A stretch of DNA of 64,000 bases, from contig JAPOXD010000028.1 of NCBI GenBank assembly GCA_026707285.1, positions 24,350-88,349 of the forward strand, written 5' to 3'. A program made the position numbers and the translations under genes. Every line of letters starts with the position of its first letter. The stretch's first letter is position 1. Of this stretch, positions 10,049 through 12,805 are shown piece by piece. The notes below the pieces were generated by a model. It searched no databases, was not told the DNA's origin, and worked only from the letters and a program-made list of their open reading frames with translations. Origin of the DNA: Chloroflexota bacterium (GTDB lineage: Bacteria > Chloroflexota > UBA11872).

Positions 10049-11930
10049 TCAGCAGAACGGCAGCCCAAGCGTGCCGAGGTCGCTGTACGGCACTTCGCGC
10101 AACCTCGCGGGAATGCATCCCGTGAATTGATTGCTACCGCCGAGTTTCAGATCGTCCAGGTTGGCAAGTTGTGCCAGTTCAGCCGGGATCGCCCCGGTCA
10201 GCTGGTTTCCATCGAGCGATAGAAATGTCAGCTGGGCGAGGCTTCCGAACTCAGGCGGGATCGATCCGCTGAGCTGGTTGTTCGCAAGCCATAGCGTCCG
10301 CAGGTTGGTCAGGCGTCCAAGCTCGGGCGGGATCGGCCCACTGAGTTGGTTGGACCCCAGGCGAAGCTCGCCGAGGTTTGAGAGGCCGGCCAACTCGGGC
10401 GGGATGGTCCCTCGCAAGTGGTTGTGCGAAAGGTCCAGCGTTTGCAGATGCGCGAGGCGGCCGAGCACAGGCGGGATCGCGCCTAAAAGCTCGCTCCTCG
10501 GGAGTCGCAAGACCGTCACCTGGCCGGCGGAATTCGTGGTCACGCCGTGCCAAACGCCGATCGGCGCCTCGCTGAGCCAGTGGCGGTTGTTTGTCCAGCC
10601 CGGACCGCTCGTCGTGTGGTAGAAGTCGATCAGCACCGCCCGGTCCGCGGCGCTTTCGCTGATCCCGCAGCGCCACAGATCGAGCTCTCGGAGATCGTGG
10701 CCCCGTATCGACCACAATTCGTCGGCGATGCACCCCGTGAGTCGGTCGTTTCCGGCAAGATACAGCCCCACCAGCTCCGGGAGCGCGCCCAGCTCCGGCG
10801 GTATCTTCCCTTCGAGTTGATTGTTGCCAAGATACAGAAACTGCACGCTGGCCATCCGGCCCAATTCGGGCGGGATCGCTCCGCTCAGGTGGTTGTTGTC
10901 GAGCGACAGGTTCTCAAGCCGGCCAAGGTCGCCTAGCGCGGGCGGGATCGATCCGCTCAGCCGGTTGTCTCGGAGGTTGAGGTATGTGAGGAAGGGGATG
11001 CGGGCCAATTCCGCCGGGAGCGCACCACTCAATTGGTTGTCTTCGAGCCACAGTTTTCTCAGGCTGCTGAGACGGCCAATCTCGGGCGGGATCGGTCCGC
11101 TCAACCGGTTGTTGGCGAGCGACAACTCCTCCAGTGTGGCAAGGCCACCCAGATTGGATGGCAGCGCACCGCTCAACTGATTGCCCTCGGCGGATAACCG
11201 TTCCAGCTTGCCGAGGCGACCCAGCTCTGGCGGAATTGCCCCGCTCAGCTGGTTGTCCGAAAGATAGAGTTGGCGAAGGTTGCGCAGGCGACCCAACTCG
11301 GACGGGATCGATCCGCTCAACTGATTGACAAGGAGCCACAGCACTTCCAATCGGACGAGGTTCCCAAGCTCAGGCGGGATCGACCCGCTCAGCAGGTTCC
11401 GCCCGAGATCCAGGTTCCTTAGCCGGTCAAGATGGCCCAGCGTCGCGGGTATTGACCCGGTGAGCTGGTTCGAGTCCAGCTCCAGGAATATCAGGCTGCG
11501 GAGGTTGCCGAGCTCCGGCGGGATTCCGCCGTCCAACTGGTTAGAAGTGAGGCTCAGCCACCATAGGTTGGTCAGCCGCCCCAGCCCAGGTGGGATCGTC
11601 CCTTGGAGCTGGTTGTCTCCGAGCCACAGGGTCTCCAGGCTTGCAAGGTTGCGCATTTCGGGTGGAATCACCCCGTGCAGCTGGTTTTGCCAAAGATCCA
11701 GGTTTTTCAGCTTGCCGAGATAGCCGAGCGCAGGTGGAATGGTCCCGCGCAATGCGTTGCTTCCCAACCGCAACTCAATGACCTGCTTGTGAATGTCCGT
11801 CGTGACGCCATACCAGTCATTCAGCGGCGCCTCGCTCAGCCAGTTGGTGTTGTTCGCCCAGTTGGGACCGTCGGTGGCGTGGTAGAGCCGGATGAGCGCT
11901 TCGCGGTCGGATGCCGGCGGCGCAGCCGGA
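10049..11930. repeat. 72-nt periodic coding repeats (LRR units); similar array in 12950..13900
   Basis: Imperfect tandem 72-bp units at DNA level reflect the 24-aa LRR units. They are mirrored as repetitive SGGIAPLSWL-type antisense ORFs. Confidence 0.5.
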
Positions 11931-12805
11931 GGCGGCGGGGGCGGCGCGGGAGTGTGCGTGAGTGCCGGCGTGGGCGTCTGCGCCGGCGCGGGCGTGGGAA
12001 GGGTGAATACCGGCAGGCCGGCCAGCGCGTCGCGCGTCACCGGGGCCTTGGCCGCGTCCGGGATGATGACGTTGCTCAGGCGCTTCACCTTGTCCGGCAC
12101 GTTTTGCAGGTTCACCCGGCCCACCGTCGTCCCCGGCGCCGGCACGTTCCAGACCACAAACACCGTCCGCTGCGTCCGCAGCAGCTGCAGACCTTGCGGG
12201 TTGCCATTGACCGCGCGCTCCTCGTAACGGATCGGCAAGCCGTAGAGATTCAGCCAATCGGGCTCGCTGAGGAATCGTTCTCTAATCGCCGCATTCCGCT
12301 CCAGCAGCGCCAGGTGATTTTGGGTGATGGTGGCGAAGTCGGCGCCACGATCGGCTTCGAGCACCTGATGGGGCGGAACGTTCGGCAACTCGACTTCCGG
12401 ATACCGGTTCGCCAGCACGTCGAGGGTGTTGTAGTAGTTCATGCGCTGCTTGCCGGGATCCCACTGCAGAATGACCTTTTGGAAGGCCTGCAGGGTGAAA
12501 GGGCCATTAGCCCAGCGCTGGCTGATGGGATAGCCGATGGCTTGCAGGTCGCGCTCGCGCGCGAAGTCCCACAGCGGCACGCCGTCCGCATTCGACACCG
12601 AGAAGCCGTCGTGGGGGTCGGCCGTATCCCCGCCGGTGATGGTAAAGAGACAGCCCTCGACCAGGGCGATGCCCCCGCATTCCAGCGCCGCCGCCGACGG
12701 CAACGCACCCAGCGCTGCCGTGGCTGCGATGGCAAGTCCTGCAAGCGCCATACGCAGAACTGGTCGCCGAACTTGCCGTCGGAGTGTTCGCACCATGCTC
12801 CCCAC
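10049..12805 (-). CDS. Secreted leucine-rich repeat protein: unknown N-terminal domain plus two plant-type LRRNT_2/LRR blocks
   Basis: 918 aa. Signal peptide, then a ~240-aa domain (CGGIALVEGC...NYYNTLDVLANRYPEVELPNV) and a PAPAQTPTP linker. Two blocks follow, each with an LRRNT_2-like cap (REALIRLYHATDGPNWANNTNWLSEAPLNDWYGVTT; RAVLIDFYHTTSGPGWTNNRHWLSEAPIGVWHGVTT) and 24-residue repeats LxxLxxLxLxxNxLSGxIPPELGxL. Ends in FTGCIP. Confidence 0.8.
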   Translation of the reverse strand: MGSMVRTLRRQVRRPVLRMALAGLAIAATAALGALPSAAALECGGIALVEGCLFTITGGDTADPHDGFSVSNADGVPLWDFARERDLQAIGYPISQRWANGPFTLQAFQKVILQWDPGKQRMNYYNTLDVLANRYPEVELPNVPPHQVLEADRGADFATITQNHLALLERNAAIRERFLSEPDWLNLYGLPIRYEERAVNGNPQGLQLLRTQRTVFVVWNVPAPGTTVGRVNLQNVPDKVKRLSNVIIPDAAKAPVTRDALAGLPVFTLPTPAPAQTPTPALTHTPAPPPPPPAAPPASDREALIRLYHATDGPNWANNTNWLSEAPLNDWYGVTTDIHKQVIELRLGSNALRGTIPPALGYLGKLKNLDLWQNQLHGVIPPEMRNLASLETLWLGDNQLQGTIPPGLGRLTNLWWLSLTSNQLDGGIPPELGNLRSLIFLELDSNQLTGSIPATLGHLDRLRNLDLGRNLLSGSIPPELGNLVRLEVLWLLVNQLSGSIPSELGRLRNLRQLYLSDNQLSGAIPPELGRLGKLERLSAEGNQLSGALPSNLGGLATLEELSLANNRLSGPIPPEIGRLSSLRKLWLEDNQLSGALPAELARIPFLTYLNLRDNRLSGSIPPALGDLGRLENLSLDNNHLSGAIPPELGRMASVQFLYLGNNQLEGKIPPELGALPELVGLYLAGNDRLTGCIADELWSIRGHDLRELDLWRCGISESAADRAVLIDFYHTTSGPGWTNNRHWLSEAPIGVWHGVTTNSAGQVTVLRLPRSELLGAIPPVLGRLAHLQTLDLSHNHLRGTIPPELAGLSNLGELRLGSNQLSGPIPPELGRLTNLRTLWLANNQLSGSIPPEFGSLAQLTFLSLDGNQLTGAIPAELAQLANLDDLKLGGSNQFTGCIPARLREVPYSDLGTLGLPFC

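What the first reader, a model, noticed from the sequence alone, without database searches (positions are those of the whole stretch)
10049..12805. Plant-type LRRNT_2 plus 24-residue PS-LRR architecture in a bacterial protein
The cap sequences (IDFYHxTxGPxWxNNxxWLSxAPxxxWxGVTT) followed by L-x-x-L-x-x-L-x-L-x-x-N-x-L-S-G-x-I-P-P-E-L-G repeats are the signature of plant LRR-RLK/RLP ectodomains. Ending an LRR block in FTGCIP also fits. Two cap-plus-repeat blocks occur in one protein and one in the paralog. This suggests either inter-kingdom transfer or a bacterial lineage of the PS-LRR class.
Basis: partly seen in the sequence, partly recalled or inferred. Interest (0 to 1): 0.6.

Follow-up and report, generated by a model that had tools for sequence, protein, structure and literature searches.

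The report
Secreted plant-type LRR proteins, Chloroflexota bacterium
Two neighbouring genes of an uncultured Chloroflexota bacterium encode secreted proteins whose leucine-rich repeats look like those of plant receptors. They belong to a large, already described microbial branch of that repeat class, not to a fresh gene transfer from plants.

Summary
The sequence observation holds. Gene A (10049-12805, minus strand, 918 aa) and gene B (12950-14809, minus strand, 619 aa) together carry 32 leucine-rich repeats. Every repeat is exactly 24 residues, with consensus LxxLxLxxNQLSGxIPPELGxLxx, the "plant-specific" (PS) class. A has two capped blocks and B has one.

The N-cap fails Pfam LRRNT_2 at E<=10, and it lacks the plant cysteine pair. 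It is nevertheless a remote relative of that domain: hhalign gives 98.5% probability to microbial caps that do pass Pfam's threshold.

The closest relatives of the module are bacterial and brown-algal, at 45-56% identity. The first plant protein ranks about 98th, at 34%. GC3 matches the neighbouring genes, and the locus is syntenic in two related genomes. Bacterial PS-LRRs were described in 2013.

Each protein reads signal peptide, a 220-aa unannotated domain, a proline-rich linker, then capped LRR solenoid(s). Distant relatives of the 220-aa domain sit on peptidoglycan hydrolases and glycosidases. I therefore infer a surface-tethered binding protein whose variable concave face takes the ligand, possibly a host-interaction protein of a sponge symbiont.

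This is a new member of a known kind, of modest interest.

The parts
10049..12805 (-). Gene A, 918 aa. Order: signal peptide, N-domain, Pro-rich linker, then two complete capped PS-LRR domains (15 and 6 repeats).
   Evidence: The gene caller on the identical ENA contig starts 18 codons later, giving 900 aa.
12686..12805 (-). A aa 1-40: Sec-type signal peptide (Arg-rich n-region, hydrophobic core, SAAA|LEC).
   Evidence: Read directly from the translation. Homologues have the same layout. No predictor was run.
12026..12685 (-). A aa 41-260: conserved N-domain with no Pfam or NCBIfam match and a Cys43/Cys52 pair. Inferred to be a cell-wall or glycan anchoring module.
   Evidence: weak fold hint.
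11906..12025 (-). A aa 261-300: Pro/Thr/Ala-rich linker.
11783..11905 (-). A aa 301-341: N-cap 1 (REALIRLYHATDGPNWANNTNWLSEAPLNDWYGVTTD...), Cys-less and LRRNT_2-like.
10667..11782 (-). A aa 342-713: LRR block 1, 15 repeats of 24 aa, including a C-cap with Cys692/Cys713.
10520..10666 (-). A aa 714-762: short spacer and N-cap 2 (DRAVLIDFYHTTSGPGWTNNRHWLSEAPIGVWHGVTTN...).
10052..10519 (-). A aa 763-918: LRR block 2, 6 repeats, plus a C-cap (FTGCIP...LGLPFC, Cys897/Cys918).
12950..14809 (-). Gene B, 619 aa, a paralogue of A. Signal peptide aa 1-31, N-domain aa 32-251 (83% identical to A's), linker aa 252-297, N-cap aa 298-338, 11 repeats aa 339-602, C-cap Cys593/Cys614.
14806..15714 (-). UbiA-family prenyltransferase gene. 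Its stop overlaps B's start by 4 nt, so co-transcription is possible. It is a context gene, not shown to be functionally linked.
   Evidence: The same neighbour is present in L012 and L014.

Best explanation
A and B are native genes of an uncultured Chloroflexota bacterium. They encode Sec-exported proteins of the bacterial branch of the 'plant-specific' LRR class.

Each protein is built in this order:
1. A signal peptide.
2. A 220-aa lineage-expanded domain. I infer that it holds the protein on the cell envelope by binding a wall polymer or glycan.
3. A proline-rich stalk.
4. One (B) or two (A) self-contained LRR solenoids. Each has a Cys-less N-cap distantly related to LRRNT_2 and a C-cap that probably carries a disulfide.

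The solenoid's concave beta-sheet is where the sequence varies, so I infer it to be the ligand-binding face. The convex face (NQLSGxIPPELG) is a near-invariant scaffold.

The most likely role is binding an external protein, peptide or glycan. Relatives come from sponge-derived genomes, so A and B may be 'eukaryotic-like' host-interaction proteins.

Shown: the architecture, repeat class, predicted fold, family distribution, native composition and synteny. Inferred: export, anchoring, the ligand-binding face and any host-interaction role.
For: Repeat class and fold:
- 32 of 32 repeats are 24 aa and match the PS consensus.
- The AF2 model of cap + 6 LRR + C-cap has pLDDT 98 and pTM 0.93, with two strands and a short helix per repeat.
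- All top-50 Foldseek PDB hits are plant LRR ectodomains. SERK1, SERK2 and BAK1 match at whole-domain level.

Bacterial lineage:
- The module search gave 1354 hits. About the first 97 are metagenomic or bacterial at 45-56% identity, some on Mb-scale contigs. P0193 lies on a 5.13-Mb contig among rhamnosidase and TsaD genes.
- The first plant hit (Xa21-like) has 34% identity.
- The same Cys-less cap occurs in brown algae, in line with the Ectocarpus report in PMC3341825.
- Prior description: Miyashita et al. 2013, cited in PMC9471246 and PMC13618415.

Native status:
- GC3 is 0.786 (A) and 0.802 (B), against a window mean of 0.826 +/- 0.063.
- Neighbours are housekeeping genes (SecDF, DUF72, 2TM, UbiA, aconitase).
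- The same locus in L012 and L014 holds one N-domain two-block LRR gene.

Export:
- The N-termini look like signal peptides.
- All ten Cys residues fall in pairs 9 or 21 residues apart.

Anchor inference:
- The N-domain has 786 cluster representatives at E<=1e-3.
- Remote members are fused to Peptidase_M23, Amidase_2/3, GH5, GH113, trypsin-like peptidases, sortase, SH3_3 and SdrD_B.
- Within the clade it heads 83 genes with swapped C-terminal modules: 20 LRR, 10 RCC1-like, 52 other.

Binding-face inference:
- Column entropy is 2.95-3.63 bits at positions 2, 3, 5, 7 and 8. It is 0.2-0.8 bits at the framework positions.
- Between syntenic genes the LRR part is about 50-60% identical, the N-domain about 85%, and the flanking proteins 78-90%.

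Sponge link:
- At least one relative, SB0662_bin_61, comes from a sample series listed as sponge-associated (PMC7883664).
- LRR 'eukaryotic-like proteins' are reported in sponge Chloroflexi (PMC6306507).
Against: - No experiment or expression data bear on function, and no ligand is known.
- The N-domain model is mediocre (pLDDT 66.5). Its only fold hint is weak: the LGFP-repeat domain of C. glutamicum mycoloyltransferase A, at E=0.027 and TM 0.25.
- Pfam LGFP does not hit A or B.
- The habitat of the window's own sample (ERZ27276916) could not be established. Some related genomes carry names that do not suggest sponges.
- High variability at the x positions of LxxLxLxxN is generic to LRRs, so it does not prove diversifying selection.
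- PS-LRRs converge on one consensus. Identity rankings between bacteria (45-56%) and plants (34-45%) are therefore only a soft phylogenetic signal.
Confidence: 0.62

Rival explanations
1. The LRR module was recently transferred horizontally from a plant or alga into this bacterium.
For: The best solved-structure matches are all plant LRR-RLKs. The literature has argued for HGT of PS-LRRs between plants and bacteria (Miyashita et al. 2013, cited in PMC9471246). Brown-algal proteins share the cap type.
Against: GC3 is indistinguishable from the neighbours. The nearest roughly 97 relatives are bacterial or metagenomic, and the first plant protein has 34% identity. The cap lacks the plant Cys pair and is the microbial type. 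The module is fused to a Chloroflexota-expanded N-domain in at least 20 paralogues and orthologues across many genomes. The locus is syntenic in L012 and L014. No mobile elements were seen in a check of the immediate flanks only; the nearest tRNA is about 8 kb away. The repeats are only 61-77% identical at DNA level, so they are not a recent expansion.
Confidence: 0.08
2. A and B are type III-secreted effectors like Xanthomonas XopAC/AvrAC or XopAE, which mimic host LRR proteins inside eukaryotic cells.
For: The best NCBIfam matches are XopAC (181.7 bits) and XopAE (152.5 bits).
Against: Both scores are far below the curated cut-offs of 450 and 600, and they cover only the LRRs. There is no Fic or other effector domain. 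The N-terminus is a classical Sec signal followed by paired cysteines. From general knowledge, not tested here, Chloroflexota are not known to carry type III secretion systems.
Confidence: 0.03
3. The proteins are freely secreted rather than wall-tethered. They would act as decoys or scavengers, for example sequestering host or competitor peptides, and the N-domain would have another role such as enzymatic activity or oligomerisation.
For: Nothing demonstrates anchoring. The N-domain has no recognised family, and its model is only partly confident. Small plant PS-LRR proteins such as PGIP and an ice-binding protein are soluble secreted binders, and they appear among the fold matches.
Against: In remote relatives the domain's partners are mostly wall-active or surface enzymes: M23, amidases, sortase, SH3_3. 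That pattern is typical of targeting modules. No conserved catalytic-type motif was recognised by any library.
Confidence: 0.2
4. The genes are eukaryotic contamination or a chimeric assembly, so they are not bacterial genes at all.
For: The LRR type looks eukaryotic, and the sequence is metagenome-derived.
Against: The identical gene lies on a 152,637-bp ENA contig with the same neighbours, and exact copies occur on 3 contigs. The reading frames are uninterrupted. Composition is host-like. Synteny holds in two complete-chromosome MAGs. Paralogues occur in about 30 Chloroflexota MAGs.
Confidence: 0.01

Closest known systems
Bacterial plant-specific (PS) LRR proteins, as catalogued by Miyashita, Kuroki, Kretsinger & Matsushima 2013 (Natural Science 5:580; reference seen in PMC9471246 and PMC13618415)
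   Same: 24-residue unit with consensus LxxLxLxxNxLsGxIPxxLGxLxx, encoded in a bacterial genome.
   Different: Here the module is fused behind a Chloroflexota-expanded, unannotated N-domain, and in A it occurs as two capped solenoids in tandem. I could not read the 2013 paper itself, so I do not know whether Chloroflexota or this cap were covered.
Plant SERK/BAK1 co-receptor ectodomains and other LRR-RLK/RLP ectodomains (LRRNT_2 + PS-LRR + C-cap)
   Same: The overall fold of N-cap helix, 5-6 PS-LRRs and a Cys-containing C-cap matches: TM 0.80-0.89 normalised to the target, rmsd 2.2-3.4 A. Sequence matches to MIK2, GSO1 and FLS2 are at E<=1e-120.
   Different: No transmembrane helix, kinase or island domain. 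The N-cap lacks the CxWxGVxC disulfide pair and fails PF08263. The N-terminal partner domain is bacterial.
Brown-algal LRR proteins, including Ectocarpus LRR-ROCO N-termini (PMC3341825) and the Nemacystus and Cladosiphon EukProt proteins
   Same: The same Cys-less cap (DREALVALYNATDGPNWxxKTxW...WYGV) followed by GxIPxEL-type repeats. The Ectocarpus paper reports only a weak LRRNT_2 match.
   Different: The algal proteins are eukaryotic, some fused to Roc-COR GTPase modules. They have no Chloroflexota N-domain.
LRR 'eukaryotic-like proteins' of sponge symbionts (PMC6306507 reports LRR genes in sponge Caldilineae and SAR202 Chloroflexi)
   Same: LRR proteins encoded by Chloroflexota whose relatives come from sponge metagenomes. 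They form a multi-copy family.
   Different: That literature counts Pfam LRR hits and does not define the LRR class, the caps or the N-domain. A sponge origin for this window itself is not established.
Surface LRR proteins of Gram-positive and spirochaete pathogens (Listeria internalins; Leptospira LIC11098, LIC10831, LIC11051)
   Same: The same logic: an exported LRR solenoid joined to a separate envelope-attachment element. Leptospira LRR proteins are the first bacterial entries in the PDB sequence search (4u08, E=8.2e-58).
   Different: Internalins use 22-residue repeats with LPXTG or GW anchors at the C-terminus. InlA scores 103 bits against a cut-off of 1600. Here the putative anchor is N-terminal and of a different family.

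Membership tests
Plant-specific (PS) LRR class | Repeat unit of 24 residues | tested here: met
   32 of 32 repeats lie on an exact 24-residue register. The DNA period is 72 nt.
Plant-specific (PS) LRR class | Consensus LxxLxLxxNxL(S/T)GxIPxxLGxLxx | tested here: met
   Column counts out of 32: L1 28, L4 31, L6 30, N9 29, L11 29, G13 29, I15 27, P16 29, L19 26, G20 25, L22 27. The consensus is as quoted in PMC13618415.
Plant-specific (PS) LRR class | Beta-beta-3(10) structural unit (a second strand on the side, then a short helix) | tested here: met
   DSSP on the AF2 model (pLDDT 98) shows E-E-H in every repeat. The unit is described in PMC5976695. This is a predicted structure, not a solved one.
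Pfam LRRNT_2 (PF08263) | Score at or above the gathering threshold (20.7 bits) | tested here: not met
   No hit at E<=1 on the whole proteins or at E<=10 on the isolated caps with or without the first repeat. The plant control P0218 scores 41.8 bits.
Pfam LRRNT_2 (PF08263) | Conserved cysteine pair CxWxGVxC | tested here: not met
   The caps read AP(L/I)xxW(H/Y)GV(T/G)T and contain no Cys.
Pfam LRRNT_2 (PF08263) | Detectable homology to bona fide members | tested here: inconclusive
   Direct test negative: the cap profile against PDB plant caps gives nothing at E<=10. Transitive test positive: hhalign gives 98.5% probability and E=2.7e-15 to a set of three microbial Cys-pair caps that pass Pfam's threshold plus one plant cap. 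phmmer alignments to MIK2, TDR, PSKR1 and HPCA1 extend into the W..GV half of the cap.
Plant LRR-RLK / LRR-RLP | Transmembrane segment, with or without a cytoplasmic kinase, after the ectodomain | tested here: not met
   Both proteins end 0-5 residues after the C-cap cysteine. There is no kinase or other Pfam domain.
XopAC/AvrAC and XopAE type III effectors (NCBIfam NF041381, NF041400) | Score at or above the curated cut-off and the full-length architecture | tested here: not met
   181.7 bits against 450, and 152.5 against 600. The matches cover only the LRR stretches.
Internalins (NCBIfam NF033189 and related models) | Curated cut-off and the 22-residue internalin LRR | tested here: not met
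   103.2 bits against 1600. The repeats are 24 residues.
LGFP-repeat cell-wall anchoring domain (PF08310), considered for the N-domain | Pfam hit or a convincing fold match | tested here: inconclusive
   No Pfam hit in A or B at E<=10. The top Foldseek hit is the LGFP domain of C. glutamicum mycoloyltransferase A, but at only E=0.027 and TM 0.25. Two of 73 remote relatives have weak LGFP hits (E=0.0033), and I did not check where in those proteins they lie.
Sponge-symbiont 'eukaryotic-like proteins' (LRR type) | Encoded by a sponge-associated symbiont | tested here: inconclusive
   All 75 related loci are Chloroflexota MAGs. One isolate series, SB0662, is listed among sponge-associated genomes in PMC7883664. 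The window's own sample, ERZ27276916, carries no habitat information here.

The most novel reading that the evidence does not exclude
The less ordinary part is the unannotated 220-aa N-domain, not the LRRs. It could be a new cell-envelope-targeting module: 786 cluster representatives, no Pfam or NCBIfam model, and a place on peptidoglycan hydrolases and glycosidases elsewhere. In this Chloroflexota clade it has become the constant 'handle' of a multigene family, with at least 10 paralogues in one chromosome. The family displays interchangeable binding modules on a proline-rich stalk: capped PS-LRR solenoids, RCC1-like propellers, acidic DGFDTT repeats and others. The displayed modules evolve much faster than the handle. 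That would make it a diversified surface-display system for host or particle interaction in sponge symbionts. In addition, the microbial caps run from Cys-less to Cys-pair forms. This series may record how the plant LRRNT_2 cap arose from a wider microbial module.
Probability: 0.3. Interest if true: 0.45.

Novelty: new member of a known kind. Interest (0 to 1): 0.25.

Why it matters
The result corrects a tempting reading, that a plant receptor ectodomain has turned up in a bacterium. The capped PS-LRR module is widespread in bacteria and brown algae. In its common microbial form the N-cap has no cysteines, so Pfam's LRRNT_2 model misses it. Domain-based surveys therefore under-count this cap outside plants.

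For symbiosis research, the locus gives a concrete and well-modelled example of an LRR 'eukaryotic-like protein'. The constant N-terminal domain and the fast-changing LRR part could each be expressed separately and tested for binding.

The practical importance is modest. Nothing here contradicts current knowledge.

Tried and rejected
1. Pfam LRRNT_2 on whole proteins and on isolated caps: no hit.
2. A cap-only profile of 34 Chloroflexota caps against all PDB sequences: only a chance antibody hit at E=1.2 and no plant cap.
3. Pfam and NCBIfam on the N-terminal 285 and 303 aa: nothing.
4. An N-domain profile against PDB sequences: only chance-level hits at E>=0.08.
6. Organism names for the bacterial relatives of the LRR module: the cluster look-up returned none. 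Only the two EukProt proteins were named, both brown algae.
7. Literature check that the MAG name prefixes denote sponge samples: only the SB0662 series could be tied to sponge-associated genomes.
8. Promoter and terminator scan around the genes: no promoter-like sites, and terminator-like sites within chance expectation.
9. Search for further copies in the window: none beyond A and B.
10. I did not build a formal phylogeny of the LRR block against plant RLKs. The repeats are so close to the class consensus, and so prone to unit shuffling, that a tree would not be trustworthy. I used cap type, hit ranking, composition and synteny instead.
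Full report
**What is at the coordinates**

The interval 10049-12805 is one uninterrupted ORF on the minus strand (gene A, 918 aa). A paralogue lies immediately upstream on the same strand (gene B, 12950-14809, 619 aa). ORFs on the opposite strand are the usual by-product of 64-70% G+C.

Slicing the proteins on a fixed register shows 15 + 6 repeats in A and 11 in B. All 32 are on an exact 24-residue period, with consensus LxxLxLxxNQLSGxIPPELGxLxx. Pfam's LRR models hit overwhelmingly: LRR_1 at E=4.7e-67 and LRR_8 at E=1.8e-42 for A. The 72-nt period is also visible in the DNA, but the units are only 61-77% identical, so the array is old rather than freshly amplified.

Each block starts with a cap of about 40 residues and ends in a modified repeat, (R/Q)(L/F)TGC(I/V)(A/P), with a second Cys 21 residues later. 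The cap motif is (L/F)YHxTxGPxWxNNxxWLSxAP(L/I)xxW(H/Y)GV.

**Which LRR class**

The unit length, the consensus and the predicted structure all match the 'plant-specific' class.

- An AlphaFold2 model of A's second module (aa 715-918: cap, six repeats, C-cap) has mean pLDDT 98 and pTM 0.93. It shows two strands and a short helix in every repeat.
- That is the beta-beta-3(10) unit described for PS-LRRs (PMC5976695).
- All 50 best Foldseek matches in the PDB are plant LRR ectodomains.
- The module superposes on whole SERK1, SERK2 and BAK1 ectodomains, with TM 0.80-0.89 normalised to the target and rmsd 2.2-3.4 A.
- By sequence, the best solved relatives are also plant receptors: MIK2 at 2e-161, then GSO1 and FLS2. 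The first bacterial entry is a Leptospira LRR protein at 8e-58.

The repeats are not of the 20-22-residue bacterial classes.

**Is the cap LRRNT_2?**

By the family's own criteria, no.

- PF08263 gives no hit at E<=1 on the proteins or at E<=10 on the isolated caps.
- A plant control scores 41.8 bits against the 20.7-bit threshold.
- A profile of 34 caps from this Chloroflexota clade finds none of the many plant caps in the PDB at E<=10.
- The plant cysteine pair (CxWxGVxC) is replaced by AP...T.

The cap is nevertheless not unrelated to LRRNT_2.

- Among the 120 best relatives of the module, 109 caps are Cys-less like these. Seven are hybrids, with the microbial first half (ALYxSTDGxNW) and the plant-like second half (CxWYGVxC).
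- Three of those hybrids pass Pfam's LRRNT_2 threshold over the whole model, at 25-30 bits.
- hhalign links the Chloroflexota cap profile to these hybrids plus one plant cap, with 98.5% probability and E=2.7e-15.
- phmmer alignments to several plant receptors run into the W..GV half of the cap.
- The modelled cap has the same helix-then-strand layout, within whole-domain superpositions on SERK ectodomains.

My reading is that this is a divergent, Cys-less relative of LRRNT_2 that the Pfam model does not cover.

**Whose genes are these?**

Everything points to native bacterial genes.

- The N-terminal domain recovers 75 loci in the species-representative genome collection, and every one is a Chloroflexota MAG.
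- The exact B protein is on a 152,637-bp ENA contig with the same neighbours.
- GC3 of A (0.786) and B (0.802) lies within one standard deviation of the window's genes (0.826 +/- 0.063).
- The neighbours are housekeeping genes: SecD/SecF, DUF72, a 2TM protein, a UbiA prenyltransferase and aconitase.
- A check of the immediate flanks only showed no mobile-element signature. The only tRNA is about 8 kb away.
- Two complete chromosomes of related MAGs (L012, L014) have the same gene order. There, a single N-domain gene with two LRR blocks sits between UbiA and the 2TM gene.

The locus is therefore old, but its LRR content is fluid. The window has two genes where the relatives have one. The LRR parts are about 50-60% identical, against about 85% for the N-domain and 78-90% for the flanking proteins.

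**Plant transfer or bacterial lineage?**

A search with the compact module returned 1354 proteins. Roughly the first 97 are from metagenomes and bacterial genomes at 45-56% identity, several on Mb-scale contigs. The first plant protein (Xa21-like, Brachypodium) has 34% identity. One relative, P0193, lies on a 5.13-Mb contig between a rhamnosidase gene and tsaD. The two eukaryotic entries near the top are brown algae, Nemacystus and Cladosiphon. This matches the report that Ectocarpus LRR proteins have such an N-terminus with only a weak LRRNT_2 match (PMC3341825).

PS-LRRs in bacteria were described in 2013 (Miyashita et al.; the reference is visible in PMC9471246 and PMC13618415). I could not read that paper.

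All PS-LRRs hug one consensus, so identity rankings are a soft signal, and I did not attempt a tree of the repeats. Even so, cap type, hit ranking, composition, synteny and fusion to a bacterial domain all agree. The evidence supports a bacterial (more broadly, microbial) lineage of the class. It does not support a recent transfer from plants. An ancient transfer in either direction cannot be addressed here.

**The rest of the protein**

Both proteins begin with an Arg-rich, hydrophobic, AxA-type signal sequence (read directly from the translation; no predictor was run). All ten cysteines fall in pairs 9 or 21 residues apart: A 43/52, 692/713 and 897/918; B 34/43 and 593/614. That pattern fits an extracytoplasmic protein.

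A domain of about 220 residues follows the signal. It has no Pfam or NCBIfam match and is 64-89% identical in 155 database proteins.

- In the 75 related loci it heads 83 distinct genes. The C-terminal parts differ: 20 carry capped PS-LRRs, 10 carry RCC1-like repeats and 52 carry other sequences, including acidic DGFDTT repeats.
- One chromosome alone has at least ten copies.
- An exhaustive search found 786 cluster representatives at E<=1e-3.
- The distant ones carry the domain at either end of Peptidase_M23, Amidase_2/3, GH5, GH113, trypsin-like, sortase, SH3_3 and SdrD_B proteins.

That partner spectrum is what one sees for wall- or glycan-targeting modules.

The AF2 model is only partly confident (pLDDT 66.5). 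Its best PDB match is the LGFP-repeat wall-anchoring domain of a Corynebacterium mycoloyltransferase. That match is weak (E=0.027, TM 0.25), so I treat it as a lead, not a result.

**How it most likely works**

The following is inference. The protein is exported and held at the cell surface by the N-domain. A Pro/Thr-rich stalk then projects one or two rigid, capped LRR solenoids.

Within the repeats, the scaffold positions are nearly invariant (0.2-0.8 bits). The solvent-exposed positions of the concave sheet (2, 3, 5, 7, 8) carry 2.95-3.63 bits and many aromatic and charged residues. This is the usual signature of an LRR ligand-binding face.

At least one related MAG series comes from sponge samples (PMC7883664). 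LRR 'eukaryotic-like proteins' are a reported feature of sponge Chloroflexi (PMC6306507). A role in host or particle interaction is therefore plausible but unproven, and the window's own sample habitat is unknown.

**Rivals**

- Type III effector (XopAC/XopAE): these are the best NCBIfam names, but the scores are far below the cut-offs and confined to the LRRs. The Sec signal and paired cysteines argue against it.
- Internalin membership fails on repeat length and score.
- Contamination or chimerism is excluded by the independent contigs and the synteny.
- A freely secreted, non-tethered binder remains possible.

**Verdict**

The PS-LRR class and the plant-ectodomain-like fold hold. LRRNT_2 membership fails by the family's own criteria, and there is no evidence of recent inter-kingdom transfer.
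- The finding is a new member of a known kind.
- The only mildly novel element is the unannotated N-domain and the modular family it heads.
- Interest: 0.25.

Noticed in passing
window 12026-12685 and 14057-14716 (minus strand); related loci L001-L075: A conserved domain of about 220 aa with no Pfam or NCBIfam model heads a multigene family in Chloroflexota MAGs. The loci fetched hold 83 genes, with at least 10 in one chromosome. The C-terminal modules vary (LRR, RCC1-like, acidic DGFDTT repeats, others). Distant relatives sit on M23 peptidases, PG amidases, GH5/GH113 enzymes and a sortase.
   Followed up: partly
window 14806-14809: The stop codon of the UbiA-family prenyltransferase gene (14806-15714, minus strand) overlaps the GTG start of gene B by 4 nt, which suggests co-transcription. 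The UbiA/LRR-gene adjacency is kept in L012 and L014.
   Followed up: partly
L012 (OZ244789.1) about 5900-9015 and L014 (OZ253558.1) about 5920-8379, compared with window 10049-14809: At the syntenic locus, related genomes have one N-domain gene with two LRR blocks, where the window has two genes (B with one block, A with two). Repeat numbers also differ between genomes, so the locus changes by duplication and by repeat gain or loss.
   Followed up: partly
window 50136-57043 (minus strand): Three tandem paralogous genes (686, 681 and 704 aa) encode family-5 extracellular solute-binding proteins (SBP_bac_5), each with an N-terminal extension of about 200 aa that Pfam does not cover.
   Followed up: no
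window 37937-39436 (minus strand): A 499-aa ORF with coding-like GC3 (0.876) has no Pfam match at E<=0.001. It lies next to an ABC exporter gene (39505-41358).
   Followed up: no
proteins P0162, P0177, P0183, P0212, P0224, P0229, P0236: These are metagenomic PS-LRR proteins with hybrid N-caps: the microbial ALYxSTDGxNW half plus the plant-like CxWYGVxC cysteine pair. The three that were scanned pass Pfam LRRNT_2. They bridge the Cys-less microbial caps and the plant caps. Their source organisms are unknown.
   Followed up: partly
window 12751-12805: The start of gene A is ambiguous. The longest ORF starts at GTG 12805 (918 aa, Arg-rich n-region). The gene call on the identical public contig gives 900 aa, starting at ATG 12751. 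Homologues favour the longer form.
   Followed up: partly
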